Counted from the stretch's first letter, positions 4,176 through 20,344 are shown. The stretch: 37,971 nt of DNA from Promethearchaeota archaeon (GCA_019894815.1 JAGXNU010000002.1:1-37971); one strand, 5' to 3'. The notes: generated by a model not told the origin, from the sequence alone. Program-made: numbers and translations.

Positions 4176-5150
4176 ATGACTGATTTCTTGACAACAGTTA
4201 TAATTTCTATAGTATTGGCTGTTCTATTCTTCATATCTGAATTCTTCAATAAAAAACATCCACGTATTCATATCTCCTTTATCGGGGGAATTTCGGTAGC
4301 ATATTTTTTTTTGGTTGTTCTTCCTGAAATTTCAGAGAATTTTCCAGAAAATCCCTTTAATTCAGTAATTTTTGAGTATCTTTTTGTAGTATTAGGTTTT
4401 GTATTTGTTCACACTTCTGAGAAATTAATTTTACAAAAGGTAGAGTCTAAATCGCAAAGGAGAATGCGTAAATTAATTGAGAAAGAAAAAATATTAGAGG
4501 AAGTGAAAAGAAATATGGAACACGTGTTAACAAATCAAATTAATAATGAGGATTTAGATGAATTTGCCTTAAAAGATATTGCTCAAACTCTTAGTGAACT
4601 AAACGAAAAAGAATCTGAGTTTCAAAATGAAATCAATAAGTATAAATTGAAAATTCAAGTTCATATCAGCGAAGATTTAAGGAAGCTTAGATTTTTTACT
4701 AATTTTGCTTACCACCTACTAGTTGGAATCATTATCGTTGGAATTTTAAACGATAATTTAATCCCCAATCCTATCATTCCCGGCATCTTATTCTTCTTCT
4801 TTGCGTGGTTTAGAACAATAATTTCTCACCGATCAGAAGCTCACATTATCTTTAGCGATTTAGATATTTGTGAAATTAAGGAAGTCACACCAAAATTAGT
4901 AAAAAGGTACCTTATCTCTTGCGCAGTTCCAATAGGAGTATTAATTGGTTTACTATTTGAAGTTATTTATCCCATAGATTTGGAAATTCTATATGTTTTA
5001 TATTCATTCATCTCAGGTGTGATTATGTATACAATTTTTCGAGAAGTAATTCCCGAGAAAGAGAAAGGGAATCCAATCTACTTTCTCACTGGATTTCTGG
5101 GCTATACATTAATTATTATAATATTGAATATCTATTCGAGCGTTATTTAG
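4176..5150 (+). CDS. Integral membrane protein with central coiled-coil loop, function unknown
   Basis: Three N-terminal and about four C-terminal hydrophobic helices flank a charged helical segment of about 90 aa (KLIEKEKILEEVKRNMEH...). Confidence 0.55.
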   Translation: MTDFLTTVIISIVLAVLFFISEFFNKKHPRIHISFIGGISVAYFFLVVLPEISENFPENPFNSVIFEYLFVVLGFVFVHTSEKLILQKVESKSQRRMRKLIEKEKILEEVKRNMEHVLTNQINNEDLDEFALKDIAQTLSELNEKESEFQNEINKYKLKIQVHISEDLRKLRFFTNFAYHLLVGIIIVGILNDNLIPNPIIPGILFFFFAWFRTIISHRSEAHIIFSDLDICEIKEVTPKLVKRYLISCAVPIGVLIGLLFEVIYPIDLEILYVLYSFISGVIMYTIFREVIPEKEKGNPIYFLTGFLGYTLIIIILNIYSSVI

Positions 5151-5307: not shown

Positions 5308-5880
5308 ATGATAAAAAAAACTTTCAAAGAGATTTTAAATATTGATGATGCCGATTATAAAATAATCGAGATGATAGAAAAAGATCCGTCAATTACACAT
5401 TCCAAAATCGCTGTTGAGATTGAAAAATCTCAACCAGCTGTCGGAGCGCGAATAATAAAGCTTGAACGCAAGCATCTCTTAACGAAACAAGTTGGGTTTA
5501 ATATAAAGGAAGTGGATATTAAAACTGCTATTGTTTTCATCTCCACAAAAGATGTAGAGGGCGTAGTTTCCAAGATCTCAAAATGTCCTTTTATCAATCA
5601 TGCTTTTAAGATATCAGGAGAATTCAATTTATTATGTTTTATTTCAGCAACCGATCTCCAAACAATCGAAAAATTAGTAGATTTATGCTTTAGAAAGGAT
5701 CCTAATGTCATTAACGTCAAAACCAATATTCTAATAGAATCCGTTCATGATTTCGTGGTGCCTATTGATTTCCAAATCGAAAAATTCGATTTTCACGCTA
5801 CAAATTGCGGTCCTGATTGTAACCAAAATGTGAACCTCCCAAAATATCAGTTTGCTAAAGTTGAGGAAGAGGAAGAGTAA
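5308..5880 (+). CDS. Lrp/AsnC-type HTH regulator with Cys-containing C-terminal extension
   Basis: DYKIIEMIEKDPSITHSKIAVEIEKSQPAVGARIIKLE is an AsnC-type HTH, followed by a RAM-like domain. Cys positions: KCPF...NCGPDC. Confidence 0.7.
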   Translation: MIKKTFKEILNIDDADYKIIEMIEKDPSITHSKIAVEIEKSQPAVGARIIKLERKHLLTKQVGFNIKEVDIKTAIVFISTKDVEGVVSKISKCPFINHAFKISGEFNLLCFISATDLQTIEKLVDLCFRKDPNVINVKTNILIESVHDFVVPIDFQIEKFDFHATNCGPDCNQNVNLPKYQFAKVEEEEE

Positions 5881-6034: not shown

Positions 6035-6577
6035 TTATAGTAATACTCCATTTTTCTTGATTTTTTGACGCATACACTTATCTCCGCAGCCATTTTCTAT
6101 CGTTGGGTCATGATCATCGGAGCTAAAATCGATAGGTAAAATAAAATCTTTTGCTATTTCAGTTACAATCTCCATGGAAACAGACTGGACCTCTGGGTTA
6201 GACCTGAAATGATAATTTATTATATTATCTATCTTTGATAGTTCTGAACTTGCCAAAAGTATGCAAATATTATGGACACCACTTAATTTAAATGCGTTTA
6301 GCATGAATGGGCAGCATTTAGCCATCTCAAATATTTCATTAGGATTCTTAGTGTTGATTTCTATCGTTGCCAAATGAATATTAACAAGCTTAAAGTTAAT
6401 TCCTGGCTGGAATTGTAATATACCATCTTTTTCCAACTTTTTAATGCGCATACCAACTGTCGGTTGACTCCTATTGATGTTTTCGGCAATTTGGGTATGA
6501 GTGAGATTAGGATTTTCTTGAACCAGCGTAATAATTTGTCGATCTATATTATCTAGCTTTAATTTTTCTGAGATCAT
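6035..6577 (-). CDS. Lrp/AsnC-type HTH regulator with Cys-containing C-terminal extension (paralog of 5308..5880)
   Basis: DRQIITLVQENPNLTHTQIAENINRSQPTVGMRIKKLE HTH. Cys positions: CCPF...GCGDKC. Convergent with its paralog. Confidence 0.7.
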   Translation of the reverse strand: MISEKLKLDNIDRQIITLVQENPNLTHTQIAENINRSQPTVGMRIKKLEKDGILQFQPGINFKLVNIHLATIEINTKNPNEIFEMAKCCPFMLNAFKLSGVHNICILLASSELSKIDNIINYHFRSNPEVQSVSMEIVTEIAKDFILPIDFSSDDHDPTIENGCGDKCMRQKIKKNGVLL

Positions 6578-6683: not shown

Positions 6684-6944
6684 TTAATCGATAGTTATAG
6701 CTTCCAATTTACATGCGGTAGTACACATGTGGCACTTTACACACATATCTTCACGATCTTCCACGACCACGCATTTTGGTTCAGTATCTTTATCGATTAC
6801 TTCATATATCCCCCGAAAGCAAGCATTTTCGCAATCAAATGACTTGCACACCCTGCACTTGCTAGTGTCTATGTGATGGAACTTATAACTTTCGATTGGG
6901 TTTGGTTTTTCAGCGTCCCTCATCAAGTAATTCCTAATATTCAA
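6684..6944 (-). CDS. Small Cys-rich ferredoxin-like protein (probable di-cluster 4Fe-4S)
   Basis: CRVCKSFDCENAC and CVKCHMCTTAC motifs in 86 aa. Overlaps the stop of the upstream reductase by 11 nt. Confidence 0.7.
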   Translation of the reverse strand: MNIRNYLMRDAEKPNPIESYKFHHIDTSKCRVCKSFDCENACFRGIYEVIDKDTEPKCVVVEDREDMCVKCHMCTTACKLEAITID

Positions 6945-7878
6945 TTTTTACATTTTTTAAATAATCAAACGCAGAATATGCCGCGATAACACCCTCTGCA
7001 ACCCCAGTAATTGCTTGCTTAAAAGGAGCATCTGCAACATCTCCCGCAGCAAAAATTCCTGGCATATTGGTTTCCGACTTTCTATTAATGATGATTTCCC
7101 CTTTTTCATTTATTTTAGTTCCTATTCTTTGGGCAATCTCTGAATTAGGGATTGATCCGATCTCAATAAAGACGCCGTCAACCTCTAACTCTTTTCCATT
7201 ATCAAAAATCACGTGGTTAACTGTTGTTTTACCAACTATTTCAACCACGTTTGTGTTATTGATTATTTCTATTTTCTCATTTTCGTAAACCCTCTTCTTA
7301 TTTATGGGTTCCGCTCTTATTTCTTCTTTACGATAAATAATGTAGACCTTTTCCACATTTTGAGCCAAAAATAAAGCCTCTTTAGCAGCAGAATCACTTC
7401 CTCCAATAACACATACAACTTTATCTTTATAAAAGGGACCATCACAGGTAGCACAATAAGAAACTCCTTTACCCGCGAATTCGTTTTCTCCTGGAATTCC
7501 TAATTTGCGTCTTTCTGACCCCGTTGCGATACAAATCGACTTTGCCTTGAATTTTTGAAAAAATGAATGTAAAACAAAATAGTCTTCAACATTTTCAATG
7601 CTTCTAATCTCATCAGAAATGTAAGGAATGCTCAATGAGTTCATGTGGTCTTTGAACATTTCCATTAACCCTTGACCGCTTATTGAAGTGATTCCAGGAT
7701 AATTCTCGACAATATCCGTGGTAGCGATTAATCCTCCAAAAACTTTACCAACTATTAATACATCCATCGCGAAGCGAGCGGCATAAATTGCACATGCAAT
7801 GGCAGTAGGTCCACCACCCAATACTATTAGATCATATGTTTTCTCTAAATCTAAACTATCCATATCAATATTAAACAA
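6934..7878 (-). CDS. trxB: Thioredoxin-reductase-family flavoprotein; NADPH-binding signature not conserved
   Basis: FAD motif GGGPTAIACAIYAAR. Redox-active CATC. GD motif FAAGDV. The pyridine-nucleotide region reads GGSDSA...YRKEEIRA instead of GGGNSA...HRRxxxR. Confidence 0.85.
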   Translation of the reverse strand: MFNIDMDSLDLEKTYDLIVLGGGPTAIACAIYAARFAMDVLIVGKVFGGLIATTDIVENYPGITSISGQGLMEMFKDHMNSLSIPYISDEIRSIENVEDYFVLHSFFQKFKAKSICIATGSERRKLGIPGENEFAGKGVSYCATCDGPFYKDKVVCVIGGSDSAAKEALFLAQNVEKVYIIYRKEEIRAEPINKKRVYENEKIEIINNTNVVEIVGKTTVNHVIFDNGKELEVDGVFIEIGSIPNSEIAQRIGTKINEKGEIIINRKSETNMPGIFAAGDVADAPFKQAITGVAEGVIAAYSAFDYLKNVKIEY

Positions 7879-8509
7879 TTTTATCTCCTCCTATCAGTTC
7901 TTGTAGGACTTCCTCAGGTCCTACCATTCCTATAAATGATTTTTTATCATTTATTACAGTATAAGGGACGCTTGAAACGTCATAGGATTCAGCAATGTCC
8001 GAATGCGCCATGATATCAATGATAACTGATTGTATTTTGCCATTAGACGCGATTGCGAATTTATTAACGAACGTTATTATCTCTGGGCAATAAACACATG
8101 AATTGGTAATCATTACTTTGATTATTGATGGTTTTATCTTTTCAATATTTTCTTTGATGACCACTTCATAATAATTTTTGTCTCCTGAAAAAATGGTTAA
8201 AGTTTCAACGAAGGGTCGGATTTCAGCACCAAATGGTTTTGCTAAGTAGCGAATTATTTCTTTCACTTTATCATTGATGAATAAAATGGCAGGAAAGTGG
8301 TTGACTTCATAATTCTTAGAGACAACTGGATTAGAAACCTCTTTAATTGAAAGTAATTCGTTAGAACTTTCTTCATATATTTTAAGAATAGATCTTACAT
8401 TGTCATTATCCTCGATATTTCTACCCATAAATAGTGATAATTCCACTGGTTTTGTGAGCTTTACCATCTCGTCACGGATTAATTTATTAAAAACGTAAGC
8501 TATAGGCAT
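7871..8509 (-). CDS. Protein-disulfide oxidoreductase (PfPDO/glutaredoxin-like, two Trx folds), paralog 3
   Basis: C-terminal unit has CVYC. N-terminal unit has no CxxC. Collinear with the two upstream paralogs (..FPAILF.., ..VPYTVIND..). Confidence 0.75.
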   Translation of the reverse strand: MPIAYVFNKLIRDEMVKLTKPVELSLFMGRNIEDNDNVRSILKIYEESSNELLSIKEVSNPVVSKNYEVNHFPAILFINDKVKEIIRYLAKPFGAEIRPFVETLTIFSGDKNYYEVVIKENIEKIKPSIIKVMITNSCVYCPEIITFVNKFAIASNGKIQSVIIDIMAHSDIAESYDVSSVPYTVINDKKSFIGMVGPEEVLQELIGGDKIV

Positions 8510-8551
8510 TTTTTTTCTCTGATGTATAATATAATTTTAAAAATTTACTCT

Positions 8552-9262
8552 TTAATACTGAACGCGTATATTTCCTCCTAATAATTCTCGCATGATCTCA
8601 TTGGGTCCAACAATTCCAACCAATGCGTTCTGATCGTTGATTATTGTATATGGAACTCCCGATGCATCATAATATTGACCAATATCTGGGTTTGCATTAA
8701 TGTCAATAATTATTGTTCTTATTTTTCCTCCAGACGCTAATGCAAATTGATTACAGATCGTTGCTACTTGCGGACAATATGGACATGTATTTGATATTAT
8801 GACTTTAATTGTAGCAGGTTCAATTCGATTTAGATTTTGTTTAATTGCAGCCTCATAGTAATTTGGAGCCCCTGCAAAAGTAAATAGCGCTTGAATAAAT
8901 GGTTGGATCTCAGCACCTTGTGGTGCTGCTAAATATCGAATGAATTCAGTACCATGTTCATCCACAAATAAAATCGTTGGAACACGTTGAATGTCATACC
9001 GCTTTGCAAATTCGGGATTTTCATCAATAGATAATTCTTCAATCGTTAACATGCTATTTGAATTTTCTTCATATACTCGTAATAAAGACATGAATTGACC
9101 ACAATCCATGCAAGCCCTTATTTTGGTTCCATCAGGTCGAGCGCTTTGAGATGTAAAAACGGTTAACTTCACGGGTCTTTTTAATTTAGCCATTTCTTGT
9201 TTTATAATTTCTTTATATTTATCATCTTGAGACACTTTAATCCACCACTTTAATAATTTCAT
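8552..9262 (-). CDS. Protein-disulfide oxidoreductase (PfPDO-like), paralog 2
   Basis: N-terminal unit CMDC and C-terminal unit CPYC. Its start overlaps the upstream gene's stop (TAATG). Confidence 0.8.
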   Translation of the reverse strand: MKLLKWWIKVSQDDKYKEIIKQEMAKLKRPVKLTVFTSQSARPDGTKIRACMDCGQFMSLLRVYEENSNSMLTIEELSIDENPEFAKRYDIQRVPTILFVDEHGTEFIRYLAAPQGAEIQPFIQALFTFAGAPNYYEAAIKQNLNRIEPATIKVIISNTCPYCPQVATICNQFALASGGKIRTIIIDINANPDIGQYYDASGVPYTIINDQNALVGIVGPNEIMRELLGGNIRVQY

Positions 9263-9966
9263 TAGGCATACATTCCACCAAAATCCCTTTGTCCTTTTGT
9301 TAATTTATCCAATAAATCTTGAGGTGAAAACATTCCATAGATGTGCTCTTTTTCATTAACAACAGTATGAGGTACGCCTTGAATTTGATATTTTTTTGCT
9401 ATGTCTGGATTCAAATTTACATCAATTACTTCAGCAGTTATCTTCCCTTTAGAGACTATTGCAAATAATGTCACTACAGGCACGGTTGCAGGACAATATG
9501 GACACGTTGGAGTGATAAAGATCTTCATGTTTGATTTAGCAATTTTTTTGAGATGAGATTGAATCTGGTCACTATAATAGGGTCTCACTCCAGAAAAATA
9601 CTGAATACTGTTAAGGAACGGTACGAATTCTGATCCTGAAGGGTTAGCCGAGTATCTGATAATCTCCTTACCATTTTCATCAACAAAAAGTATCGCAGGA
9701 ATCCGATTCACATTATAACGTTCTGTTTCTTCTTTATTCTCCTCAGTTGATAACTCTTCATGATCTAATTTCCCATCGGAAAGTTCTGAAAGGGTCTTTA
9801 ATAGATCGTGCGTCCCCTCGCAAGCCATGCACATTCGTTTTTTTGTACCATCTTTTTGTGTTTTAAAATCCGTGAATAACTTTAGCACAACTTTATCTTT
9901 TAATTTACTCAATTCATTTTTTATATTTTTTAATTCATTTTCTGAGAATAGCATTTCATCACCCAT
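9262..9966 (-). CDS. Protein-disulfide oxidoreductase (PfPDO-like), paralog 1
   Basis: N-terminal unit CMAC and C-terminal unit CPYC. Same architecture as 8552..9262. Confidence 0.8.
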   Translation of the reverse strand: MGDEMLFSENELKNIKNELSKLKDKVVLKLFTDFKTQKDGTKKRMCMACEGTHDLLKTLSELSDGKLDHEELSTEENKEETERYNVNRIPAILFVDENGKEIIRYSANPSGSEFVPFLNSIQYFSGVRPYYSDQIQSHLKKIAKSNMKIFITPTCPYCPATVPVVTLFAIVSKGKITAEVIDVNLNPDIAKKYQIQGVPHTVVNEKEHIYGMFSPQDLLDKLTKGQRDFGGMYA

Positions 9967-10208
9967 TTCTATTATTCATATTTGAAATAACCCTTAAAAT
10001 AGTTCTTTCTTTAAATTATAAAATCGAATAGAGGTAATTGAGGTTGGGATAAATGAAAGCTTAAAGTAGTTTTTATTATCATAATTCTCGCTTTAAATAT
10101 CTTATTTAAATCACATGTTTTATATCGTTTGATTGGTATCTTTTATATGCTAATATTAAATTAATCAGATTAATTATTTCAGAACCAACAAAAGTGTTTT
10201 AATCAAGG

Positions 10209-11246
10209 ATGATACCGACATATTCACCAGCAATAGTTTACATCCATATAAATGGATCAAATGAACCAAAAATCAATTTTTGGTATCCTTCTGAACTTCC
10301 AGAAGACGTGAGAACATTAATTGGAATGAAATGCAGTTCTATCATTTCTGACGATATGAGCTATATACCTGAAGTACTTTTAGTATTTCCTCTCCCGTCA
10401 TTAAAATCAAAAATGTTGATTAAATATTTTGAAAGCCATAAAACGTCAGAACAAGAAATTCCAAATCGATCAGCATTAATATTTGTTTTTTCTGAAGAAA
10501 ATGATGTGATTTTTTATAGATACATGAGTTATATTGATTCATATTTTGGAGATACAATCAAAAAAATTAAAGAACTTGAAATGAATAAAAATGACAAACA
10601 AACAATTTTCACTGAAATCATTAAGTTAAAAGATACATTAATCGAATCCACCGAATATTTATACTCGAAAAGTCAATTTTTATTGAAATCGCAAGATCCT
10701 CAAGACTCTCCAACAGAATTAGATTCTAAAGTAGACCCTCAATCCAAATTTAAAGTAGTGATTTTAGGAGATCCAAGCGTCGGTAAAACATCCAGTGTCT
10801 TAAGATTTACCGATAACGTTTTTTTACGGGCTTATATTCCCACAATGGGTCTTAACATCACCCAAAAAAGATTTAAAATAAATTATAATTCCATGGAACT
10901 CGTATTATGGGATGTAGGTGGACAGCAAAAATTTGAAACAATCAGAAAACAATTTTATGAAGGTGCAAGTGCTTACATTTTATTATTTGATCTTACCAGT
11001 GCAAAATCTTTTGCAAAAATACCAAAATGGCATGAAGACATTGTAAGTTATTTAGGGAAAAAGGCCCTTATTAAAGGGTATCTCATAGGAAATAAAATAG
11101 ATTTAAATAAAGACAGGATTGTTAGCGTAATAGACGGAATTAGACTTGCTAAAGCACTGGACGTTGATTATTTTGAATCCTCTGCATTAACTGGACACAA
11201 TATCGAGTTTTATTTTAGGAAAATATCAAATGACCTATTACAATAA
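10209..11246 (+). CDS. Rab/Arf-like small GTPase with about 180-aa N-terminal (possibly longin-like) domain
   Basis: Complete G1-G5 set: GDPSVGKTS, switch-I T in PTMG, WDVGGQ, GNKIDL, SSALTG. The N-terminal domain is unassigned. Confidence 0.8.
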   Translation: MIPTYSPAIVYIHINGSNEPKINFWYPSELPEDVRTLIGMKCSSIISDDMSYIPEVLLVFPLPSLKSKMLIKYFESHKTSEQEIPNRSALIFVFSEENDVIFYRYMSYIDSYFGDTIKKIKELEMNKNDKQTIFTEIIKLKDTLIESTEYLYSKSQFLLKSQDPQDSPTELDSKVDPQSKFKVVILGDPSVGKTSSVLRFTDNVFLRAYIPTMGLNITQKRFKINYNSMELVLWDVGGQQKFETIRKQFYEGASAYILLFDLTSAKSFAKIPKWHEDIVSYLGKKALIKGYLIGNKIDLNKDRIVSVIDGIRLAKALDVDYFESSALTGHNIEFYFRKISNDLLQ

Positions 11247-12230
11247 TAAATCGCATGGATCTTTGAGTTTGAACTTAAATTTTTTCTTTTTGCCATAAAA
11301 TTTTAAAATCCAAAAAGCATCAGGGCAATAAGTTGTTATAAAACCTTGAAAATTCTCAGTTGGAAAACTAAATTCAATTTCTTTAAATTCTTCCATACGT
11401 CTAATAGCAATCTTTTCAGCTATATCAACTCTTAATTGGTGTCCCACTCCACCCCCACAACAACTATGAGGGACATCCAAAATGGTGAATCCACTTTTTG
11501 CATAAATATCACTCATAGATCTCTCTATTTCTGGAAATTCAATGTATTTCAATGGACAAGCATGCTGAATCACGAGATTTCCAGATTTTTTCTCACTTGA
11601 ATGAGTTAAATACTCCGTGAAATACTTGATTTCAATCCCAAGTTCACTGTAATGTTTCTTAAAAACCATGTAACAACTGGGACAAGTGGTAATTATTTTC
11701 TTATAACCATTTTGGGTGAACAATTGCTTATTTTTCTCCACTAATAGTTCATAAGTTTTTAGCTCACCTGTACAAAGGATTGGATATCCACAACATATTT
11801 CTTGGTCAATTACAGTGAAATCAACGTCTTTTTTAATTAAATATCTAACAATGTTTTCAGCGTATTTGGGCGTTTTGACTGTTGTGAAACATCCAAAATA
11901 TAATAATGTCTCACTTTCCTTCGATATTCCCTCAGGTAATTTGACTCGGCTTTTATTTTTGGTAAATGGTGTTCCATATACTTTTAAAGCCTCGATTGAT
12001 GAGTTCAATCCTTCGATTTTGTTGCCATCTTTTAAAAATTTTTGTTTAAGTAGGAAACGTTCAGATTGCGTGCCACAAGCTCCACAATGAATACAGTTAT
12101 ATAACTTATAATAATCCTCTTGCTTGAATGAATAAGAATTTGCATCTTTGAGGAGATTTAATACTTTTTGATTAGACAAGAAATTATCAGGATCTACATT
12201 TTCACAAGGACAGTCATAATCTTCATTCAT
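11238..12230 (-). CDS. HdrD/GlpC-like Fe-S oxidoreductase with two CCG domains
   Basis: CIHCGAC cluster motif. CCGYP..C and CCGGGVG CCG-domain motifs with CPSCY and CPDAF partners. Confidence 0.75.
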   Translation of the reverse strand: MNEDYDCPCENVDPDNFLSNQKVLNLLKDANSYSFKQEDYYKLYNCIHCGACGTQSERFLLKQKFLKDGNKIEGLNSSIEALKVYGTPFTKNKSRVKLPEGISKESETLLYFGCFTTVKTPKYAENIVRYLIKKDVDFTVIDQEICCGYPILCTGELKTYELLVEKNKQLFTQNGYKKIITTCPSCYMVFKKHYSELGIEIKYFTEYLTHSSEKKSGNLVIQHACPLKYIEFPEIERSMSDIYAKSGFTILDVPHSCCGGGVGHQLRVDIAEKIAIRRMEEFKEIEFSFPTENFQGFITTYCPDAFWILKFYGKKKKFKFKLKDPCDLLL

Positions 12231-12238
12231 GATTTAAT

Positions 12239-13234
12239 TTAAAGCAGTAATTCGAATATATCCTTTGCTTTTGGTTCTATTTTGCAAATCTTACTAAAAC
12301 GAGCTAGAATCCACCAACAACTGGGACAGTAAGTTGTAGCATAATCAATATCTGTTTTGTTAAAATCCTCCATTCTCTTATAAGCTATAGCCTTAATGAT
12401 GTCTGTACGATGCATATATCCAATTCCTCCTCCACAACACCACATTGGAATATCTTCTACTTCATATCCGCTTTTTTCGAGTATTTTATCAACCATCTTA
12501 TCTACTCCTTCTCTGCCCCTGTTAATTAATTGACATAAATGTTGCACTCCTATTTTCCCCTCCTTCTTATCCTCAGATGGTCTCAGATAATCGCTGATGT
12601 AAACAAATTCCACTTCCTTTTCCATTTCTGGTGCATAATATTTATTAAATAGAAAATAACAAGCAGGACACAAGCAAATTATCTTCTTAAACTGGTTAAA
12701 AATTTCAATATTTTCCTTTTTACATGTTTCAAACTCTTTCAATGAGCCGCTTGCAAACCACGGCCACCCGCAGCAGATTTCCTCATCTAAAATGGTAAAG
12801 TCTATACCCTGTTTAAGTAGATATTGAAGTGAATGCTCCGTATATCTCGGAATTCTAATTGTCGAAAGACATCCCATAAAATATAATGTATCGGACTTCT
12901 CGGAAATTCCATCAGGACGTCGTATGCGCATCTTTTTTGATGGATAGGGGGTTCTATACTTCTTAAAACAATCTTGTAGTTCTTTTAACCCATTAAAAGT
13001 ATTCCCATCTTTGAGAAATTTCTCTTTTAACTGAATTCTCTCTTCCTCAGTTTCGCATTCCCCGCAATCAACGCAATTATATATTTTATAATAATCATCC
13101 CTATTAAACTTAAAATTATCCTTATTTCGTATTAATTCCCTTATTTTCTCATCAGATAGAAAATTCTTTGAATCGACTTCATCTGTAGGGTAATTCTTTC
13201 TCCCTTTAATCCTTTCTTTCACTGGTTCCACCAA
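12239..13234 (-). CDS. HdrD/GlpC-like Fe-S oxidoreductase with two CCG domains (tandem paralog)
   Basis: CVDCGEC, then CCGWP, CPACY, CCGGGIG, CPSCW. Collinear with 11238..12230. Confidence 0.75.
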   Translation of the reverse strand: MVEPVKERIKGRKNYPTDEVDSKNFLSDEKIRELIRNKDNFKFNRDDYYKIYNCVDCGECETEEERIQLKEKFLKDGNTFNGLKELQDCFKKYRTPYPSKKMRIRRPDGISEKSDTLYFMGCLSTIRIPRYTEHSLQYLLKQGIDFTILDEEICCGWPWFASGSLKEFETCKKENIEIFNQFKKIICLCPACYFLFNKYYAPEMEKEVEFVYISDYLRPSEDKKEGKIGVQHLCQLINRGREGVDKMVDKILEKSGYEVEDIPMWCCGGGIGYMHRTDIIKAIAYKRMEDFNKTDIDYATTYCPSCWWILARFSKICKIEPKAKDIFELLL

Positions 13235-13352
13235 ATATTTGAAGTGTATGTTTACTCTTAAAAATGGGGTTAAATTATTATTAACTTTTAATGAAATTAG
13301 GGCAAGTTAAATTAAAAATTGTAAGAGAAAAAAATTCAAAATGGCCTAAATC

Positions 13353-13511
13353 TTATTTTTTTTCTTTAAGTTTAACATCAGTTCGTTGGATTCCAACTTC
13401 CTTACTACTTGGAAGTGCAGTACCACAATTATCTCGGTTTGATTCATTTGCTTTTAGTGCTTTATCTAATTCGGCCTCTAATTCATCATCAGACAATTCT
13501 TTATCATTCAT
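13353..13511 (-). CDS. Possible 52-aa acidic/basic small protein (not in the ORF track)
   Basis: Hand translation: MNDKELSDDELEAELDKALKANESNRDNCGTALPSSKEVGIQRTDVKLKEKK. Same strand as all neighbours. It competes with the low-complexity + strand ORF 13291..13515. Confidence 0.3.
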   Translation of the reverse strand: MNDKELSDDELEAELDKALKANESNRDNCGTALPSSKEVGIQRTDVKLKEKK

Positions 13512-13595
13512 ATGAATAAATCAGTAATGAAAATATTTAAGGCTTATATTTATGAATTATTGATAAAAGAATGTTAGAAAAAAGGAGTATATAAT

Positions 13596-13961
13596 TTATT
13601 TATTGAGAAAATCTATAACGGCTTGTTCTTTCTCCTTAGGTCTGCGTTCTGGCACTAAAATAAAAGCCTCATTTATAGTTTCATAGAAATCAGAACGCAT
13701 GTAGAGGTTACAATAACAAGTACCGTGCTCTTTAACATCTAAAGGTGCATAATCACAAGGACATATCAAATCTCTATCCAATTCCCTATTTCCAGAAGCT
13801 AATCTACAGGGACAGGATTGATATCCCAGCTTATTTTTATTCACAGTTAAACCATCAAGTAATTCGCTTAACGTTTCATCTTCCTTATTCAATACCCATT
13901 GATTTTTTTGAGCCACTTTATTACAATATTCCAACATTCCTTCTTTTGTGTCCATATCCAT
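13596..13961 (-). CDS. Ferredoxin:thioredoxin reductase catalytic-subunit (FTRc) homolog
   Basis: CPC-x16-CPC-x13-CYC arrangement (CPCRLASGNRELDRDLICPCDYAPLDVKEHGTCYC) resembles the FTR beta-chain cluster and disulfide motif. Confidence 0.7.
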   Translation of the reverse strand: MDMDTKEGMLEYCNKVAQKNQWVLNKEDETLSELLDGLTVNKNKLGYQSCPCRLASGNRELDRDLICPCDYAPLDVKEHGTCYCNLYMRSDFYETINEAFILVPERRPKEKEQAVIDFLNK

Positions 13962-14275
13962 TATTTCATTATCTCCTCATATTTATTTGGATCATATCCA
14001 ACAACAAATTTATCATCACAAACTAAGAATGGGTAGGCAATCCTATCTGGTTTATATTTCTCTCTGAGGTATTCAAGAATTTCTGACTTCTGTTTTGATG
14101 AAAGGCTATCCAGATCAATGTATTTATATTTAATATCTCGATCCTTTAGAAATTTCTTACATTTTTTACACCACATGCATGTGCTAAGGGTGTAAATACT
14201 CACTTCATGAGAATCATTCTTACCTTCAACTTCATTAAAAAGTTCCCGCATAAATTCTGGAAGCATAATTATCAC
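13961..14275 (-). CDS. Glutaredoxin/NrdH-like small thiol protein
   Basis: CMWC active-site position followed by KFLKDRDIKYKYIDLD. About 100 aa. 1-nt stop/start overlap with the FTRc homolog. Confidence 0.65.
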   Translation of the reverse strand: MIIMLPEFMRELFNEVEGKNDSHEVSIYTLSTCMWCKKCKKFLKDRDIKYKYIDLDSLSSKQKSEILEYLREKYKPDRIAYPFLVCDDKFVVGYDPNKYEEIMK

Positions 14276-14347
14276 TTATATTGATTTTTTGATATTTAAT
14301 TGAAAGATTGAATTAAATGATATTAAATTAAGGTTTATAAATTAAAA

Positions 14348-14806
14348 TTAATTTTGAATTTTTAACTTTTTAATATTCTCACGCCAATTAACATCGATGC
14401 ATTCGAATGCTTTTTCGGTACGCTCTCTTATGTCCACATCACAAGAATCAATTAAAATCCCTAATTGTTGTAAAGCACGTTTATCTCCTATTTTCATTAA
14501 ACTATCAATAATTAAGAATAATCTGGCTTTATCTTGATTCTCTTCTGGCTTTTCAAGCTCTTCAGATAAGAATTTAAGTATTGACAATGTAGATTTTGCA
14601 TTTCTAATTTCACCCATTACCTCAATTATGCGATTTATTACTACCGCATCATTTTCTTTATTTATAGCTTTGATTAAAAGATTAACTGCACGCCCCTCTT
14701 TTAGGTGTCCTAATTTTCTTGCAGCCGCAACTCTTTCCATGGTTTCGCCGTGAAATAATTTCCGAATAGCTTCGTTGAATTCATCTTTTTTAGTATCTGG
14801 ATCCAT
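14348..14806 (-). CDS. HEAT-repeat (PBS-lyase type) protein
   Basis: Repeating AAARKLGHLKEGRAVNLLIKAL..D....VRxxA-like units. Confidence 0.6.
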   Translation of the reverse strand: MDPDTKKDEFNEAIRKLFHGETMERVAAARKLGHLKEGRAVNLLIKAINKENDAVVINRIIEVMGEIRNAKSTLSILKFLSEELEKPEENQDKARLFLIIDSLMKIGDKRALQQLGILIDSCDVDIRERTEKAFECIDVNWRENIKKLKIQN

Positions 14807-15031: not shown

Positions 15032-16396
15032 ATGGAAAATGAATTAACACACTCGAAATTAAACATGGCGTCTATGGGATTCGCAAAGTTTCTCAATGAA
15101 TTCATTGAAATGGCGTTTACAGCTTGGTGTTTTTATTTTTACGAACAAGTACTGCATTTAGAGACATTTTGGGTTGGTATCGGATATATCATTTTCGCTC
15201 TATGGAATGCTGTTAATGATCCTCTCATGGGATTCCTAACGAATCGACCCTTTAAATTCACGCGGAAATGGGGGCGCAGATTTCCTTGGATCATCATCGG
15301 TGGAGTTCCCTATGTATTAAGCTATACTCTAATTTTTACTCCCCCTGGATCGGAACCTCTAATACTCTTCTTATGGTTAATATTTTCAACCTGTCTTTTC
15401 GATCTATTTAACTCAATTTTCTTCATAAACTACGTTTCCTTGTTTCCCGATAAGTTCAGGTCCGTAAAAGAAAGACGTACTGCAACTGCTGTCCAAACTC
15501 CGATAGGTATCATTGGAATTGCCATTGGTGCCTTATTGCCTCCAATGATTATAGACGATACAGTTCCCGGGTCTTTTATGGTTCAAGGCGTTATAATGGC
15601 TATGATCGGTCTTGTGGTTATTGTATTGGCAATACCAGGCTGTCGTGAGGATAGACAAACAATAGATCTCTATCTCGACAAAGAAAGAGAGAAAACACCC
15701 TTCTTTAAATTATTGAAAACTGCCTTATCACAAAAAAGTTTCTTAGTTTTCATCATCACTTATTCTCTCTATCGTTGTCTTGTCATTTCATTCCAAGCAT
15801 CGATCCCATATTTAGTAGAATTTGTATTGCTTGAAGACGAAATCATAGTAACCATACTATCTGCTGGATTTCTCTTAGGATCCTTATTCACTTCACCCTT
15901 ATGGGCCCGATTGGCGCACAAATCGAATAATAACAAGAAAGCAATGCTAATAAGCGCAGTTATACTAATCATATGTACTTTTGTGTTGGCATTTATCAAT
16001 GATTGGATGATCATGTTTGTCGGAATCATGTTTTGGGGCATCGGCTTAGGAGGCTTTTGGACGATGATATCACCCGTTTTAGCTGATGTCATTGATGAGG
16101 CGGTTGTTACAACACAGAAACGACAAGAAGGTATTTATAATGGGTTCTTGCAATTCTTTGGACGATTAGGAATTCTCTTTCAAGCGCTCTCCTTTTCATT
16201 AATCCATATTGTTACGGGATTTGTTGAAGGGAGTTCTACTCAAGGTGCTCTCGCTGTATTTGGCATTAAACTGCACTTTTCTGTCATTCCAACGATAGTA
16301 ATGTTAATTGGAGCGCTCATATTTTGGAAATTTTACAAATTAACCCCTGATAAGATTAAAGAGCATCAAGAAAGAGTGATAGAACTTAAATTATAA
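15032..16396 (+). CDS. MFS transporter, GPH (glycoside-pentoside-hexuronide)-like
   Basis: About 12 hydrophobic helices. NAVNDPLMGFLTNR matches the GPH D-P-x-x-G-x-x-x-D/N-R loop. Confidence 0.75.
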   Translation: MENELTHSKLNMASMGFAKFLNEFIEMAFTAWCFYFYEQVLHLETFWVGIGYIIFALWNAVNDPLMGFLTNRPFKFTRKWGRRFPWIIIGGVPYVLSYTLIFTPPGSEPLILFLWLIFSTCLFDLFNSIFFINYVSLFPDKFRSVKERRTATAVQTPIGIIGIAIGALLPPMIIDDTVPGSFMVQGVIMAMIGLVVIVLAIPGCREDRQTIDLYLDKEREKTPFFKLLKTALSQKSFLVFIITYSLYRCLVISFQASIPYLVEFVLLEDEIIVTILSAGFLLGSLFTSPLWARLAHKSNNNKKAMLISAVILIICTFVLAFINDWMIMFVGIMFWGIGLGGFWTMISPVLADVIDEAVVTTQKRQEGIYNGFLQFFGRLGILFQALSFSLIHIVTGFVEGSSTQGALAVFGIKLHFSVIPTIVMLIGALIFWKFYKLTPDKIKEHQERVIELKL

Positions 16397-16493
16397 CTAC
16401 ATTTTTTCTTTTTATTTTAAAACTAAAGGAAATGGACGCTAATTCCATAAGTTGTATAAAAAAGAAATTAAAATAATGTTAATTTTATTAAAA

Positions 16494-17129
16494 TTATTTT
16501 CCTGCTAATTTTTTAATATGCCTGACTCCATCGACAGCGTCATCTGCGAAATCGTCTGCGCCTAACCGTTTAGCAAGTTCCATATTCAAGGGAGCTCCAC
16601 CAACGATTAATTTTACTTTATCTCTAATACCAGCTGACTTTAAAGCCTCGTGAGTGGTTTTGATGTGTTCCACAGTCATGGTCAATAGGGAGCTTAAAGC
16701 TACGATTGTGGCTCCTGTTTCTTTTACTTTTTCAACAATAACATTTTCATCAACATCCATTCCTAAATCATGCACTTCAAAACCACTGCTCAATAATAAT
16801 GAGCCTAAAATATTCTTTCCAATGTCATGGTTGTCCCCTTGTACTGTGGCCAATATTATCTTAGTTTTATCTATTGACTTGTCTGATGCAGCTAAAGCTG
16901 GTTGAAGCACTTTAAACGCTTCTTTCATTGTCTCTCCAGCTAAAACTAGTTCTGTCAAGTAATATTCCTTCTCTTCATATCTACGACCAACTTCATCCAT
17001 TCCTTTGGTTAATGCATTTAGAACATCAAATGGATCCTTTCCATCTGCATCTAAAGCCTCTTTTACAGCTGCTTCTATATCGTCAACTTCCAATTCAATT
17101 ATAAGTTCTGTTAATTTCTCAAATTTCAT
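16494..17129 (-). CDS. Methyltransferase-cognate corrinoid protein (B12-binding domain)
   Basis: N-terminal helical cap plus DxHxxG (GDNHDIGKN), SxL (LSSLLT) and GG (VGGAP) cobalamin-binding signature. 211 aa. Confidence 0.85.
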   Translation of the reverse strand: MKFEKLTELIIELEVDDIEAAVKEALDADGKDPFDVLNALTKGMDEVGRRYEEKEYYLTELVLAGETMKEAFKVLQPALAASDKSIDKTKIILATVQGDNHDIGKNILGSLLLSSGFEVHDLGMDVDENVIVEKVKETGATIVALSSLLTMTVEHIKTTHEALKSAGIRDKVKLIVGGAPLNMELAKRLGADDFADDAVDGVRHIKKLAGK

Positions 17130-20259: not shown

Positions 20260-20344
20260 TATATTAGTTTATGAAAAAAGTTAAATTTGTAATGTTAGAT
20301 GAAATATATATATTAAAAACGTTCTTTTTCATTAAGTGAAAATT

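What the first reader, a model, noticed from the sequence alone, without database searches (positions are those of the whole stretch)
6684..14806. 8-kb ferredoxin-to-thiol redox supercluster as a candidate undescribed electron-transfer system
About 8 kb holds 3 PDOs, 1 TrxR-like flavoprotein, 1 ferredoxin, 2 HdrD-like proteins, 1 FTRc-like protein, 1 Grx-like protein and 1 HEAT protein. It is bordered by two Cys-decorated Lrp regulators and interrupted only by a GTPase. That gives three mechanistically different disulfide reductase types: flavin, 4Fe-4S FTR-type and CCG-type. No obvious NAD(P)H-binding module is present. This points to a ferredoxin-fed network for protein or small-molecule disulfide reduction in an anaerobe.
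Basis: inference. Interest (0 to 1): 0.65.

Follow-up and report, generated by a model that had tools for sequence, protein, structure and literature searches.

The report
Conserved Asgard archaeal thiol-redox gene neighbourhood
This stretch of an uncultured Asgard (Loki-type) archaeon holds three different kinds of disulfide-reducing machinery side by side, in an order kept across about 80 related species; two of the three look like lineage versions of known archaeal systems, and they sit behind separate promoters rather than forming one new electron-transfer machine.

Summary
Window 6684-14806 encodes a 2x[4Fe-4S] ferredoxin, a TrxR-like flavoprotein, three PDO paralogs, two CCG (HdrB/HdrD-like) proteins, an FTRc-like protein, a Grx-like protein and a HEAT protein. 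A Ras-type GTPase interrupts the block.

In 80 species-level Asgard genomes anchored on CCG2, the order HEAT-Grx-FTRc-s52-CCG2-(CCG1)-PDO-PDO-TrxR is collinear in 74.

It is not one operon. Tight coupling exists only within HEAT-Grx-FTRc, CCG2-CCG1 and PDO-PDO-TrxR. Unrelated genes, often on the opposite strand, sit between these units in relatives. Each unit has its own conserved TATA-like block.

- **FTRc + Grx:** a split form of the known FDR / methanoredoxin-type pair; PDB 7pwe is a natural fusion of both.
- **TrxR + PDO:** resembles the Sulfolobus/Pyrococcus system. It does have a nucleotide-binding domain, with conserved non-canonical NADPH motifs, so its donor is open.
- **Ferredoxin:** abuts TrxR only in this lineage; everywhere it travels with an Lrp-like regulator.
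- **CCG2/CCG1:** appears Asgard-restricted and uncharacterised.

Verdict: a new variant of known kinds, of moderate interest.

The parts
14348..14806 (-). HEAT-repeat protein (152 aa) with two invariant Cys; first gene of the HEAT-Grx-FTRc unit
   Evidence: PF13646 HEAT_2 E 6e-9. C122 and C136 are 100% conserved in 52 sequences. The median gap to Grx is 30 nt in 50 loci. A conserved TATA-like block lies upstream.
13961..14275 (-). Glutaredoxin-like redoxin of the methanoredoxin type, motif CMWCKKC plus C86 (public gene call is 101 aa)
   Evidence: PF00462 E 1e-10. Best PDB hits are 3nzn (E 1e-13) and 5cax (E 4e-12). It also matches residues 5-74 of the fusion protein 7pwe. Four Cys are 96-100% conserved. 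It overlaps FTRc by 1 nt.
13596..13961 (-). FTR catalytic-subunit-like [4Fe-4S] disulfide reductase of the FDR type, single domain (121 aa)
   Evidence: PF02943 at 69.3 bits. PDB 7pwe E 1.4e-25 and 4tpu E 1.1e-22, against only about 5e-4 for plant/cyanobacterial FTRc. CPC...CPC...CYC is 100% conserved in 71 sequences.
   Evidence: Called as a gene on public contigs. Found in 62 loci at 60-88% identity. Codon-position mismatch is 0.24/0.14/0.42. It has its own TATA-like block. No Pfam, NCBIfam or PDB match.
12239..13234 (-). CCG2: soluble HdrB/HdrD-like protein with an N-terminal CxxCxxC motif and two complete CCG motifs
   Evidence: PF02754 with 2 stretches. Invariant Cys listed. AF2 pLDDT 90.6. 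Foldseek best hits are EtfD 9ojn, LutA and HdrB. Orthologs are 61-91% identical in 80 Asgard species. Only 10 clusters reach E<=1e-30 among 1.84e9 representatives.
11238..12230 (-). CCG1: paralog of CCG2 (42% identity); its second CCG motif lacks the last Cys (CPDA)
   Evidence: PF02754 and alignment. The median gap to CCG2 is 9 nt in 41 loci. Present in 39 of 74 loci with room.
10209..11246 (+). Ras/Roc-family GTPase with a ~170-aa N-terminal domain, convergent with CCG1; lineage-specific insert, probably not part of the redox machinery
   Evidence: PF00071 E 2e-42. An ortholog sits at this position in only 9 of 80 loci.
10010..10022 (-). TATA-like box (TTTATAATTTAAA) of the conserved promoter block upstream of PDOc
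   Evidence: At least 80% column conservation across 59 loci. Exact match in the window, 44 nt upstream of the ATG.
9262..9966 (-). PDOc: protein disulfide oxidoreductase with two Trx-fold units, CMAC + CPYC
   Evidence: TIGR02187 E 8e-51. PDB 1a8l/1j08 E 4e-23. All four Cys invariant in 59 sequences. About 77% identity across loci.
8552..9262 (-). PDOb: second PDO paralog, CMDC + CPYC; overlaps PDOc by 1 nt
   Evidence: TIGR02187 E 6e-41. Cys invariant in 54 sequences. The median PDOc-PDOb gap is -4 nt.
7871..8509 (-). PDOa: third PDO paralog with only the C-terminal CVYC
   Evidence: TIGR02187 E 5e-36. A third PDO paralog is present in 18 of 50 loci that have TrxR.
6934..7878 (-). Low-Mr thioredoxin-reductase-like flavoprotein with CATC active site and non-canonical nucleotide motifs GGSDSA and YRKEEIR (public gene call is 309 aa)
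   Evidence: PF07992 E 7e-47 and PF00070 E 1e-10. TIGR01292 scores 316.9, below the 343.45 cut-off. Best PDB hits are 4zn0/3f8p at 1e-68, against 6gna (FFTR) at 4e-43. GGSDSA is found in 51/51 and YRG in 48/51 orthologs.
6684..6944 (-). 2x[4Fe-4S] ferredoxin-like protein; true start probably at 6923 (79 aa)
   Evidence: PF00037 at 21.8 bits, just above the cut-off. Eight Cys are invariant in 29 sequences and the N-terminal 7 codons are absent from orthologs. The public call is 79 aa. The junction with TrxR is spanned by contigs of 3 runs.
6035..6577 (-). LrpB: Lrp/AsnC-type regulator with conserved CPF and C-terminal CGxxC; constant neighbour of the ferredoxin
   Evidence: PF13412/PF13404. Cys conservation. 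All 29 ferredoxin orthologs lie next to an LrpB-like gene.
5308..5880 (+). LrpA: Lrp/AsnC regulator with conserved Cys (C93, C127, C167, C171), downstream of the ZIP transporter
   Evidence: PF01037 and PF13412. About 84% identity across loci. Cys conservation.
4176..5150 (+). ZIP-like metal transporter; conserved end of the syntenic block
   Evidence: PF02535 at 32.7 bits, below the 35.1 cut-off. Syntenic in many loci.

Best explanation
The region is a conserved thiol-disulfide redox gene neighbourhood of Loki-type Asgard archaea. It is built from separately promoted units that work in parallel rather than as one chain.

- **Unit 1 (HEAT-Grx-FTRc).** This is a ferredoxin:disulfide-reductase-type enzyme: an FTRc-like protein with one [4Fe-4S] cluster next to a redox-active disulfide. 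It takes single electrons from a ferredoxin and reduces its cognate methanoredoxin-like redoxin (CMWC), which then reduces target disulfides.
- **Unit 2 (s52-CCG2-CCG1).** This is an apparently Asgard-restricted soluble HdrB/HdrD-like pair. It most likely uses CCG-bound iron-sulfur clusters to reduce an unidentified disulfide. The substrate could be a low-molecular-weight disulfide or one involving the single Cys of s52.
- **Unit 3 (PDOc-PDOb-[PDOa]-TrxR).** This is the archaeal thioredoxin-type system. The flavoprotein (FAD plus CATC) reduces the CPYC sites of the PDOs, which repair or reduce protein disulfides. Its electron donor is unresolved: NADH or NADPH with altered binding, F420H2, or ferredoxin.
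- **Regulatory side.** The small 2x[4Fe-4S] ferredoxin and the two Cys-bearing Lrp regulators form the adjacent unit. They probably couple the neighbourhood to redox or metal status.

Shown here: gene content, motifs, family relationships, conservation of order, and the sub-unit boundaries. Inferred: cofactors, direction of electron flow, substrates and regulation.
For: - **Domain and motif content:**
- **Conservation:** 80 species-level Asgard loci, 74 collinear. Grx/FTRc/s52 lie beside CCG2 in 92-93% of loci with room, and PDOc/PDOb/TrxR lie downstream in 81-85%.
- **Unit boundaries:** median gaps are HEAT-Grx 30 nt, Grx-FTRc 13 nt by the estimate (the two genes overlap by 1 nt in the window), CCG2-CCG1 9 nt, PDOc-PDOb -4 nt and PDOb-TrxR -14 nt. 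By contrast, s52-CCG2 exceeds 500 nt in 20/69 loci, CCG-PDOc is never 60 nt or less, and TrxR-Fd is always at least 1177 nt in relatives.
- **Inserted genes:** they are unrelated and often on the opposite strand. They include SfsA, HSP20, NYN, a MOT1-type MFS, a GAF-PAS kinase and roadblock-like proteins.
- **Promoters:** separate conserved TATA-like blocks lie upstream of HEAT, s52, PDOc, Fd and LrpB.
- **Grx-FTRc partnership:** the two genes overlap, and PDB 7pwe is a single chain matched by both (residues 5-74 and 93-192).
- **FDR precedent:** 4tpu matches at E 1e-22. FDR reduces a Trx homolog in M. acetivorans (PMC6262447; PMC7278568).
- **TrxR-PDO precedent:** the best PDB hits are S. solfataricus TrxB-3 and PfPDO. 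NTR-to-PDO relay is described in PMC7278568.
- **CCG2 fold:** HdrB, LutA and EtfD. A Helarchaeota relative is fused to polyferredoxin domains.
Against: - No expression, protein-interaction or biochemical data could be obtained. The only candidate RNA-like runs gave fragmentary contigs.
- Synteny on the low-coordinate side extends to unrelated genes (DTD, glyoxalase, NUDIX). Part of the conservation may therefore be regional inertia rather than selection for linkage.
- CCG-domain proteins also act in non-disulfide electron transfer. EtfD and LutA are the best fold matches.
- The conservation statistics are conditional on the presence of CCG2, which was the anchor.
- The depositors' class labels (Hod-, Hermod-, Odin-, Thor-) were not verified, so the true phylogenetic breadth is uncertain.
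- About 15-19% of loci with room lack the PDO/TrxR unit nearby, for example L022 and L034.
Confidence: 0.6

Rival explanations
1. The whole block is one integrated, ferredoxin-fed electron-transfer system. The ferredoxin delivers electrons to the TrxR-like flavoprotein, the FTRc-like protein and the CCG proteins, and these act together on a common pool of PDO/Grx redoxins or one small-molecule disulfide.
For: - All units stay within about 10-15 kb in most of 80 species despite repeated insertions.
- The TrxR-like protein has conserved deviations from both NADPH motifs: GGSDSA in 51/51 and YRG in 48/51 orthologs. This leaves room for a non-pyridine donor.
- In this window the ferredoxin starts 10 nt after the TrxR stop, and that junction is real.
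- FTR-type and CCG-type enzymes both use one-electron donors. A CCG2 relative is fused to polyferredoxin domains.
Against: - Ferredoxin is never adjacent to TrxR in the 22 relatives where the gap could be measured. It is always next to an Lrp-like gene.
- TrxR is much closer to NAD(P)H enzymes than to FFTR/DDOR structures: 1e-68 against 1e-41 to 1e-43.
- The units have separate promoter-like blocks and are separated by opposite-strand genes.
- Some genomes keep CCG2 without the PDO/TrxR unit nearby.
Confidence: 0.15
2. The clustering is mainly inherited gene order in a slowly rearranging chromosomal region. The units are independent housekeeping redox genes, each with its own function and regulation. 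Their proximity has no mechanistic meaning.
For: - Synteny continues past the redox genes to ZIP, D-aminoacyl-tRNA deacylase, a 287-aa unknown, glyoxalase, a Ras GTPase and NUDIX in loci that reach that far.
- SfsA, HSP20 and NYN genes recur inside the block.
- Each unit has its own promoter-like block.
Against: - In the more distant loci (CCG2 61-66% identical), the Fd/Lrp/ZIP side is lost or rearranged. The Grx-FTRc-s52-CCG2...PDO-PDO-TrxR order persists even with 1.4-4 kb of foreign genes inserted.
- The opposite flank (MFS, corrinoid protein, ABC transporter) is retained only in the closest relatives.
- Nine of twelve consecutive genes are Cys-redox proteins.
Confidence: 0.2
3. CCG2/CCG1 is not a disulfide reductase. 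It is the iron-sulfur electron-transfer subunit pair of some dehydrogenase or oxidoreductase, as with LutA, GlpC, EtfD or SdhE. It is only a neighbour of the thiol systems.
For: - The best structural matches are EtfD (TM 0.68) and LutA, ahead of HdrB.
- Sequence similarity to HdrB is weak (E 4e-9).
- NCBIfam hits span TfrB, LdhH and GlpC.
Against: - No dehydrogenase, flavoprotein or membrane partner gene is adjacent in any of the 80 loci.
- The constant neighbours are FTRc, Grx and s52.
- Both CCG motifs are complete and invariant in CCG2. That is the signature of the HdrB active site.
Confidence: 0.25

Closest known systems
NTR-PDO thioredoxin-type system of Sulfolobus/Saccharolobus, Pyrococcus and Aeropyrum (low-Mr thioredoxin reductase plus protein disulfide oxidoreductase)
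   Same: The TrxR-like protein has an FAD domain and a CATC active site. Its best solved relatives are M. mazei NTR and S. solfataricus TrxB-3 (E 1e-68). The PDOs have two Trx-fold units with CxxC sites and a CPYC C-terminal site. PfPDO 1a8l and P. horikoshii 1j08 are the best hits. The PDO and TrxR genes are translationally coupled.
   Different: - Two to three PDO paralogs sit in tandem.
- The NADPH signatures are replaced by GGSDSA and YR(G/K)EEIR in all Asgard orthologs.
- TIGR01292 and TIGR02187 scores fall below the curated cut-offs.
- The electron donor is therefore untested and may differ.
Ferredoxin:disulfide reductase (FDR) of Methanosarcina acetivorans and related FTRc-like proteins (PDB 4tpu, 7pwe), with methanoredoxin-type Grx-like proteins (PDB 5cax, 3nzn)
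   Same: The CPC...CPC...CYC cluster/disulfide motif is invariant. Sequence similarity to 7pwe and 4tpu is strong. The adjacent Grx-like protein has the TCxWCKK motif of 3nzn/5cax. The Grx and FTRc domains occur fused in 7pwe.
   Different: - The protein is single-domain (121 aa), with no rubredoxin or fused Grx domain.
- The Grx-like partner has two extra conserved Cys (CMWCKKC, C86).
- It is preceded by a Cys-bearing HEAT protein and followed by s52.
- Coenzyme M, the methanoredoxin reductant, is not expected in these archaea (own knowledge).
Plant/cyanobacterial ferredoxin:thioredoxin reductase (FTRc + FTRv)
   Same: The Pfam family is the same (PF02943), and so is the presumed one-electron [4Fe-4S]/disulfide chemistry.
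   Different: Similarity is only distant (E about 5e-4). No variable subunit gene is present. The partner is Grx-like rather than a classical WCGPC thioredoxin.
Heterodisulfide reductase HdrB/HdrD and other CCG-domain proteins (DsrK, TfrB, GlpC, LutA, EtfD)
   Same: There are two CCG motifs (CXnCCGXmCXXC), complete in CCG2. The predicted fold superposes on HdrB, LutA and EtfD.
   Different: - The N-terminus has only one CxxCxxC motif, followed by Glu or Ser instead of Cys-Pro. HdrD has two 4-Cys ferredoxin motifs.
- The proteins are soluble, with no HdrE/HdrA/HdrC, dehydrogenase or membrane partner nearby.
- The family forms a tight cluster whose named members are all Asgard.
- The substrate is unknown.
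[quoted passage not shown]
   Same: It is a low-Mr TrxR fold lacking canonical GxGxxA/HRRxxxR motifs. In this window only, a ferredoxin gene follows directly.
   Different: FFTR/DDOR structures match much more weakly (6gna 4e-43, 6gnd 1e-41, 5j60 3e-41) than NTRs do, and are about 25 residues shorter. One Arg of the 2'-phosphate triad and the final Arg are retained. Ferredoxin is not adjacent in relatives.

Membership tests
NADPH-dependent low-Mr thioredoxin reductase (NTR; TIGR01292) | FAD-binding domain and redox-active CxxC in the second domain | tested here: met
   PF07992 is matched full length at E 7e-47. CATC aligns with the active site of 4zn0, 3f8p and 7aaw.
NADPH-dependent low-Mr thioredoxin reductase (NTR; TIGR01292) | Pyrophosphate motif GGGxxA and 2'-phosphate motif HRRxxxR (as defined in PMC5627308, PMC10880999 and PMC6262447) | tested here: not met
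   The window has GGSDSA and YRKEEIR. Asgard orthologs have GGSDSA in 51/51 and YRGEEIR in 48/51.
NADPH-dependent low-Mr thioredoxin reductase (NTR; TIGR01292) | Score above the curated equivalog cut-off | tested here: not met
   316.9 bits against a cut-off of 343.45.
NADPH-dependent low-Mr thioredoxin reductase (NTR; TIGR01292) | NADPH-dependent reduction of a redoxin | not testable with these tools
   This needs an enzyme assay.
[quoted passage not shown] | Closest similarity to, or clustering with, characterised FFTRs | tested here: not met
   6gna scores 4e-43 and 6gnd 1e-41, against 1e-68 for NTR structures.
[quoted passage not shown] | Absence of NAD(P)H motifs | tested here: inconclusive
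   The motifs are altered but not erased. The Rossmann domain (PF00070) is present, and Arg183 and Arg188 are kept.
[quoted passage not shown] | Reduction by ferredoxin | not testable with these tools
   Gene adjacency to a ferredoxin exists only in this lineage.
Protein disulfide oxidoreductase (PfPDO family; TIGR02187) | Two thioredoxin-fold units in one ~225-aa chain, with a CxxC in each and CPYC in the C-terminal unit | tested here: met
   PDOc has CMAC + CPYC and PDOb has CMDC + CPYC, all invariant. 1a8l and 1j08 match at E 4e-23. PDOa has only the C-terminal CVYC.
Protein disulfide oxidoreductase (PfPDO family; TIGR02187) | Score above the curated cut-off (185 bits) | tested here: not met
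   The three proteins score 172.4, 140.2 and 123.9 bits. They are related to the equivalog model but lie outside it.
FDR-type FTRc-like ferredoxin:disulfide reductase | FeThRed_B domain with the CPC-Xn-CPC-Xn-C(H/Y)C cluster/disulfide motif | tested here: met
   PF02943 scores 69.3 bits against a cut-off of 22. All six Cys are 100% conserved in 71 sequences.
FDR-type FTRc-like ferredoxin:disulfide reductase | Closer to archaeal/bacterial FDR-like proteins than to plant-type FTRc | tested here: met
   7pwe scores 1.4e-25 and 4tpu 1.1e-22, against 4e-4 to 7e-4 for 2pvd/1dj7.
FDR-type FTRc-like ferredoxin:disulfide reductase | Fused rubredoxin domain, as in M. acetivorans FDR | tested here: not met
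   The protein is 121 aa with a single domain. Nothing aligns to the rubredoxin part of 4tpu.
FDR-type FTRc-like ferredoxin:disulfide reductase | Ferredoxin-dependent disulfide reduction | not testable with these tools
   This needs biochemistry.
Plant-type FTR heterodimer | Variable subunit (FTRv) gene or partner | tested here: not met
   No ORF of the region matches a variable-chain family.
HdrD / HdrB heterodisulfide reductase | Two CCG motifs | tested here: met
   PF02754 gives two stretches. C122, C154, C155, C189, C192 and C234, C266, C267, C303 are invariant, and C306 is nearly so. CCG1 lacks the last Cys.
HdrD / HdrB heterodisulfide reductase | HdrC-like domain with two 4-Cys [4Fe-4S] motifs (HdrD), or a separate HdrC/HdrA/HdrE partner | tested here: not met
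   Only one CxxCxxC motif is present (C54, C57, C60). No Fer4 Pfam hit was found, and no partner genes occur in the 80 loci.
HdrD / HdrB heterodisulfide reductase | CoM-S-S-CoB or other disulfide reduction | not testable with these tools
   The substrate is unknown.
Methanoredoxin / YruB-type Grx-like redoxin | Grx fold with an N-terminal TCxWC active site | tested here: met
   PF00462 E 1e-10. 3nzn and 5cax alignments show STC[MV]WCKK. The TIGR02196 score of 47.5 is below the 88.55 cut-off.

The most novel reading that the evidence does not exclude
s52-CCG2-CCG1 may be an Asgard-specific carrier-and-reductase system analogous to DsrC/DsrK. In this reading, the single invariant cysteine of the 52-aa protein carries a mixed disulfide or persulfide. 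The CCG pair resolves it with ferredoxin-derived electrons. Together with the FDR/Grx unit and the non-canonical TrxR/PDO unit, this would form a largely pyridine-nucleotide-independent thiol-redox network characteristic of the archaeal relatives of eukaryotes.
Probability: 0.15. Interest if true: 0.75.

Novelty: new variant of a known kind. Interest (0 to 1): 0.55.

Why it matters
Asgard archaea are the closest known relatives of eukaryotes. How these anaerobes cope with oxidants and maintain protein thiols bears on models of eukaryogenesis at oxic-anoxic interfaces.

This neighbourhood holds some of the most conserved proteins of the region: TrxR about 80%, PDOc about 77% and LrpA about 84% identity across species. 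It suggests three specific, testable points:

1. A thioredoxin reductase with systematically altered NADPH motifs, whose reductant is unknown.
2. An apparently Asgard-restricted CCG-protein family, with a co-located Cys-bearing micro-protein, that has no assigned substrate.
3. Cys-bearing Lrp regulators paired with a ferredoxin, as a possible redox or metal sensor.

Each can be tested with recombinant proteins or in the cultured Loki-type strains.

Tried and rejected
- **Exact look-up of TrxR.** The TrxR product found nothing with the TTG-extended ORF. The FTRc look-up then showed that the window is an ENA metagenome contig.
- **Expression evidence.** No clearly labelled RNA run holds the sequence. 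The four runs of unknown type gave short, mixed-strain contigs with no interpretable coverage pattern. No statement on co-transcription could be made from reads.
- **FFTR membership of the TrxR-like protein.** Rejected on similarity.
- **A C-terminal aromatic tail as in DDOR/FNR-like enzymes.** Considered and dropped. The protein is only about 4 residues longer than M. mazei NTR.
- **Selenocysteine forms.** NCBIfam's best families contain selenoproteins, but no in-frame stops occur at Cys columns in any ortholog.
- **s52.** No match in Pfam, NCBIfam or the PDB.
- **Shared operator motif.** The search found only AT-rich TATA-like blocks, and nothing specific was shared between units.
- **Literature.** No paper in the held library describes this cluster. 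The FDR and FFTR primary papers were not held. One search failed.
- **Homolog search with FTRc.** It returned only Asgard orthologs in the top 120, so it gave no view of non-Asgard contexts.
- **Rfam and tRNA scans of the window.** Both were empty.

Full report
**What is in the window**

The window is low-GC (about 30%) and corresponds to an ENA metagenome contig of 61.8 kb. The same sequence occurs in permafrost, soil and sediment metagenomes.

Gene content points to an Asgard (Promethearchaeota) archaeon. It includes Ras-family GTPases, a SNAP/TPR-like protein, CdhD and an ADP-forming acyl-CoA synthetase-like protein. Named homologs of CCG2 and the FTRc-like protein carry Asgard labels only.

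**Inventory (window 6684-14806)**

| Coordinates | Product | Key features |
|---|---|---|
| 6684-6944(-) | Ferredoxin-like protein | True start probably 6923, 79 aa; eight invariant Cys in two cluster motifs |
| 6934-7878(-) | Low-Mr thioredoxin-reductase-like flavoprotein | CATC active site |
| 9262-9966(-) | PDOc | CMAC + CPYC |
| 8552-9262(-) | PDOb | CMDC + CPYC |
| 7871-8509(-) | PDOa | CVYC only |
| 10209-11246(+) | Ras/Roc GTPase | Opposite strand |
| 12239-13234(-), 11238-12230(-) | CCG2 and CCG1 | Two CCG-domain proteins |
| 13596-13961(-) | FTR catalytic-subunit-like protein | CPC...CPC...CYC |
| 13961-14275(-) | Glutaredoxin-like protein | CMWCKKC |
| 14348-14806(-) | HEAT-repeat protein | |

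- Both Lrp/AsnC regulators lie on one side (5308-5880+, 6035-6577-).
- A 52-aa gene at 13353-13511(-) was missed.
- The TrxR-like protein does carry a nucleotide-binding Rossmann domain (PF00070).

**Is the block conserved?**

CCG2 was used as the anchor because it is distinctive. Its homologs are 61-91% identical across Asgard MAGs. A scan of one genome per species returned 119 relatives, and the best 80 loci were kept. All 80 come from Asgard MAGs or from MAGs deposited only as 'uncultured archaeon'. The named ones are labelled Promethearchaeota, or Hod-, Hermod-, Odin- or Thorarchaeota by the depositors; these labels were not verified.

A tblastn of all window proteins against these loci gave the following results:

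- The order HEAT-Grx-FTRc-s52-CCG2-(CCG1)-(GTPase)-PDOc-PDOb-(third PDO)-TrxR-...-Fd-LrpB-LrpA-ZIP is collinear, with the same strands, in 74 of 80 loci.
- Among loci with enough flanking DNA, s52, FTRc and Grx accompany CCG2 in 92-93%.
- PDOc, PDOb and TrxR accompany it in 81-85%.
- CCG1 accompanies it in 53%.
- Fd and LrpB lie within 10 kb in 51-55%.

The proteins are also unusually conserved: TrxR about 80%, PDOc about 77% and LrpA about 84%. Neighbouring genes such as ZIP, the deacylase and HEAT are 50-60% identical.

**One system or several units?**

Estimated intergenic distances across loci show tight coupling only within three groups:

- HEAT-Grx has a median gap of 30 nt.
- Grx-FTRc is always 21 nt or less, and the two genes overlap in the window.
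- CCG2-CCG1 has a median gap of 9 nt.
- PDOc-PDOb has a median of -4 nt, and PDOb-TrxR a median of -14 nt.

Between these groups, relatives carry unrelated genes, often on the opposite strand:

- Two unknown proteins of about 350 and 368 aa lie between s52 and CCG2 in 20 of 69 loci.
- A GAF-PAS histidine kinase, a MOT1-type transporter or both lie between CCG2 and PDOc.
- SfsA, with or without HSP20 and NYN genes, lies between TrxR and Fd.

Alignment of upstream regions shows separate, strongly conserved TATA-like blocks ahead of HEAT, s52, PDOc, Fd and LrpB. None is seen ahead of Grx or TrxR. The PDOc block includes TTTATAATTTAAA at window 10010-10022.

The region is therefore a set of separately promoted units rather than one operon.

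**The ferredoxin**

In this window the ferredoxin starts 10 nt after the TrxR stop. Contigs from three independent runs span that junction, so it is real.

In all 22 relatives where both genes are found consecutively on the same strand, at least 1177 nt separate them. This holds even in the relative whose CCG2 is 91% identical, L005. By contrast, all 29 ferredoxin orthologs sit next to an LrpB-like gene.

The juxtaposition that most suggests a 'ferredoxin-fed' TrxR is thus a derived deletion state of this lineage. The ferredoxin's constant partner is a Cys-bearing Lrp regulator. LrpA and LrpB both keep a CPF cysteine and a C-terminal CGxxC.

**The TrxR-like protein**

- Its closest solved relatives are NAD(P)H-type enzymes: M. 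mazei NTR 4zn0 and S. solfataricus TrxB-3 3f8p, both at E 1e-68.
- Ferredoxin-dependent FFTR and DDOR structures score 1e-41 to 1e-43.
- The two NADPH signatures defined in the literature are GGGxxA and HRRxxxR (PMC5627308, PMC10880999, PMC6262447).
- They are replaced by GGSDSA (51/51 Asgard orthologs) and YRGEEIR (48/51; YRKEEIR in the window).
- The TIGR01292 score is below its cut-off.

It is therefore not a canonical NTR and not an FFTR-clade member. The donor could be NADH or NADPH bound differently, F420H2, or ferredoxin. Loki-type archaea encode F420 biosynthesis (PMC8498797).

Its partners are almost certainly the co-transcribed PDOs. Their best solved relatives are PfPDO and its homologs. 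This mirrors the NTR-to-PDO relay described for Sulfolobus and Pyrococcus (PMC7278568).

**The FTRc-like and Grx-like pair**

- The FTRc-like protein is of the archaeal/bacterial FDR type. It matches 7pwe at E 1.4e-25 and 4tpu at 1.1e-22, against about 5e-4 for plant/cyanobacterial FTRc.
- 4tpu is, to my knowledge, the rubredoxin-fused M. acetivorans FDR.
- All six cluster/disulfide cysteines are invariant.
- The overlapping upstream Grx-like gene is most similar to Methanosarcina Grx-like proteins 3nzn and 5cax, which share STCxWCKK. 5cax is methanoredoxin, to my knowledge.
- The Grx-like protein also matches residues 5-74 of 7pwe, while the FTRc-like protein matches residues 93-192 of the same chain.

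That natural fusion is good evidence that the two window proteins are partners. FDR reduces a thioredoxin homolog in M. acetivorans (PMC6262447).

Differences from the known examples:

- It has a single-domain architecture.
- The redoxin carries two extra conserved Cys.
- A Cys-bearing HEAT protein heads the unit.

**CCG2, CCG1 and s52**

- CCG2 has one N-terminal CxxCxxC motif and two complete, invariant CCG motifs. CCG1 lacks the last Cys.
- The AlphaFold model is confident (pLDDT 90.6). It superposes best on M. smegmatis EtfD, then LutA and HdrB.
- In a library of 1.84 billion cluster representatives, only 10 score E<=1e-30. Every named member of the closest clusters is an Asgard archaeon.
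- A Helarchaeota relative is fused to polyferredoxin-type domains. This is consistent with electron input from iron-sulfur carriers.
- No dehydrogenase or membrane partner is nearby in any locus.

s52 is a real gene:

- It is called on public contigs.
- It is present in 62 loci at 60-88% identity.
- Its codon-position mismatch is 0.24/0.14/0.42.
- It has one invariant Cys and its own promoter-like block.
- It has no known homolog.

A disulfide-reductase role for CCG2/CCG1, possibly acting on s52 or a low-molecular-weight disulfide, is an inference from context and motif completeness. It has not been shown.

**Caveats**

- Synteny on the low-coordinate side extends beyond the redox genes to the deacylase, glyoxalase, a Ras GTPase and NUDIX. 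Some of the conservation reflects regional gene-order inertia.
- Against pure inertia, the opposite flank is lost beyond the closest relatives. In the most distant loci the three thiol units remain linked, while the Fd/Lrp/ZIP side is lost or rearranged.
- The statistics are conditional on CCG2.
- No expression data could be recovered.
- No paper in the held library describes this cluster.

**Verdict**

The best reading is a conserved Asgard thiol-redox neighbourhood made of parallel modules. Two are lineage variants of known systems: the TrxR-PDO relay and the FDR/methanoredoxin-type pair. One is uncharacterised and apparently Asgard-restricted: s52-CCG2-CCG1. Beside them sits a ferredoxin/Lrp unit that is probably regulatory.

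The finding is a new variant of known kinds. It offers concrete open questions on the TrxR donor, the CCG substrate and the Lrp/ferredoxin sensor.

Noticed in passing
window 13353-13511 (-): A conserved 52-aa protein with one invariant Cys (motif D[HNQ]CG[TS]xxPxNxEVG[IV]QRT) lies between FTRc and CCG2. It shows a clear coding signature and has its own promoter-like block. No known family or structure matches it.
   Followed up: yes
window 6923-6934; compare L005 9432-11342: This lineage has lost about 2.2 kb between TrxR and the ferredoxin. Its closest relative still carries NYN, two HSP20 genes and SfsA there. The window has a NYN paralog elsewhere, at 27377-27877.
   Followed up: partly
window 9967-10208, esp. 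10010-10022 (-): The non-coding DNA upstream of PDOc is unusually conserved: a TATA-like box plus a downstream AAATATTCATAATAGA-like block. It is kept at 80% or more across 59 species whose proteins are only 60-80% identical, which suggests a constrained promoter, operator or leader.
   Followed up: partly
window 5308-5880 (+) and 6035-6577 (-): Both Lrp/AsnC regulators keep a CPF cysteine and a C-terminal CGxxC motif across species. LrpA is about 84% identical across loci and sits downstream of a ZIP-like metal transporter. They may be metal- or redox-sensing regulators.
   Followed up: partly
L012 751-1803 (-) and 1936-3042 (-); same site in about 20 loci: Two conserved proteins without Pfam or NCBIfam hits are inserted on the opposite strand between s52 and CCG2 in many relatives. 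One is a 350-aa membrane protein. The other is a 368-aa protein whose N-terminus looks roadblock/longin-like. Both are absent from the window.
   Followed up: partly
L066 11026-12666 (-), L067 12073-13233 (+): A GAF-PAS histidine kinase and a MOT1-type MFS transporter recur between CCG2 and PDOc in the more distant relatives.
   Followed up: no
window 10209-11246 (+), 910-1743 (-), 23246-24775 (+): Eukaryote-like signature genes are present. There are two Ras/Roc-family GTPases, one with a ~170-aa N-terminal domain whose ortholog sits in the same position in 9 loci. There is also a SNAP/TPR-like protein.
   Followed up: no
window 31928-35536 (-): A 1202-aa ORF has no Pfam match. ORFs at 20336-21616, 28030-28668 and 30133-30867 also lack matches.
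   Followed up: no
P0284 (Helarchaeota, 609 aa): A relative of CCG2 is fused to Fer4_5 and dicluster ferredoxin domains. This is a possible hint at the electron-input partner of the family.
   Followed up: partly
window 15032-17129: An MFS_2 transporter and a corrinoid (B12-binding) protein flank the block on the high-coordinate side. This flank is syntenic only in the closest relatives (L006, L007).
   Followed up: partly
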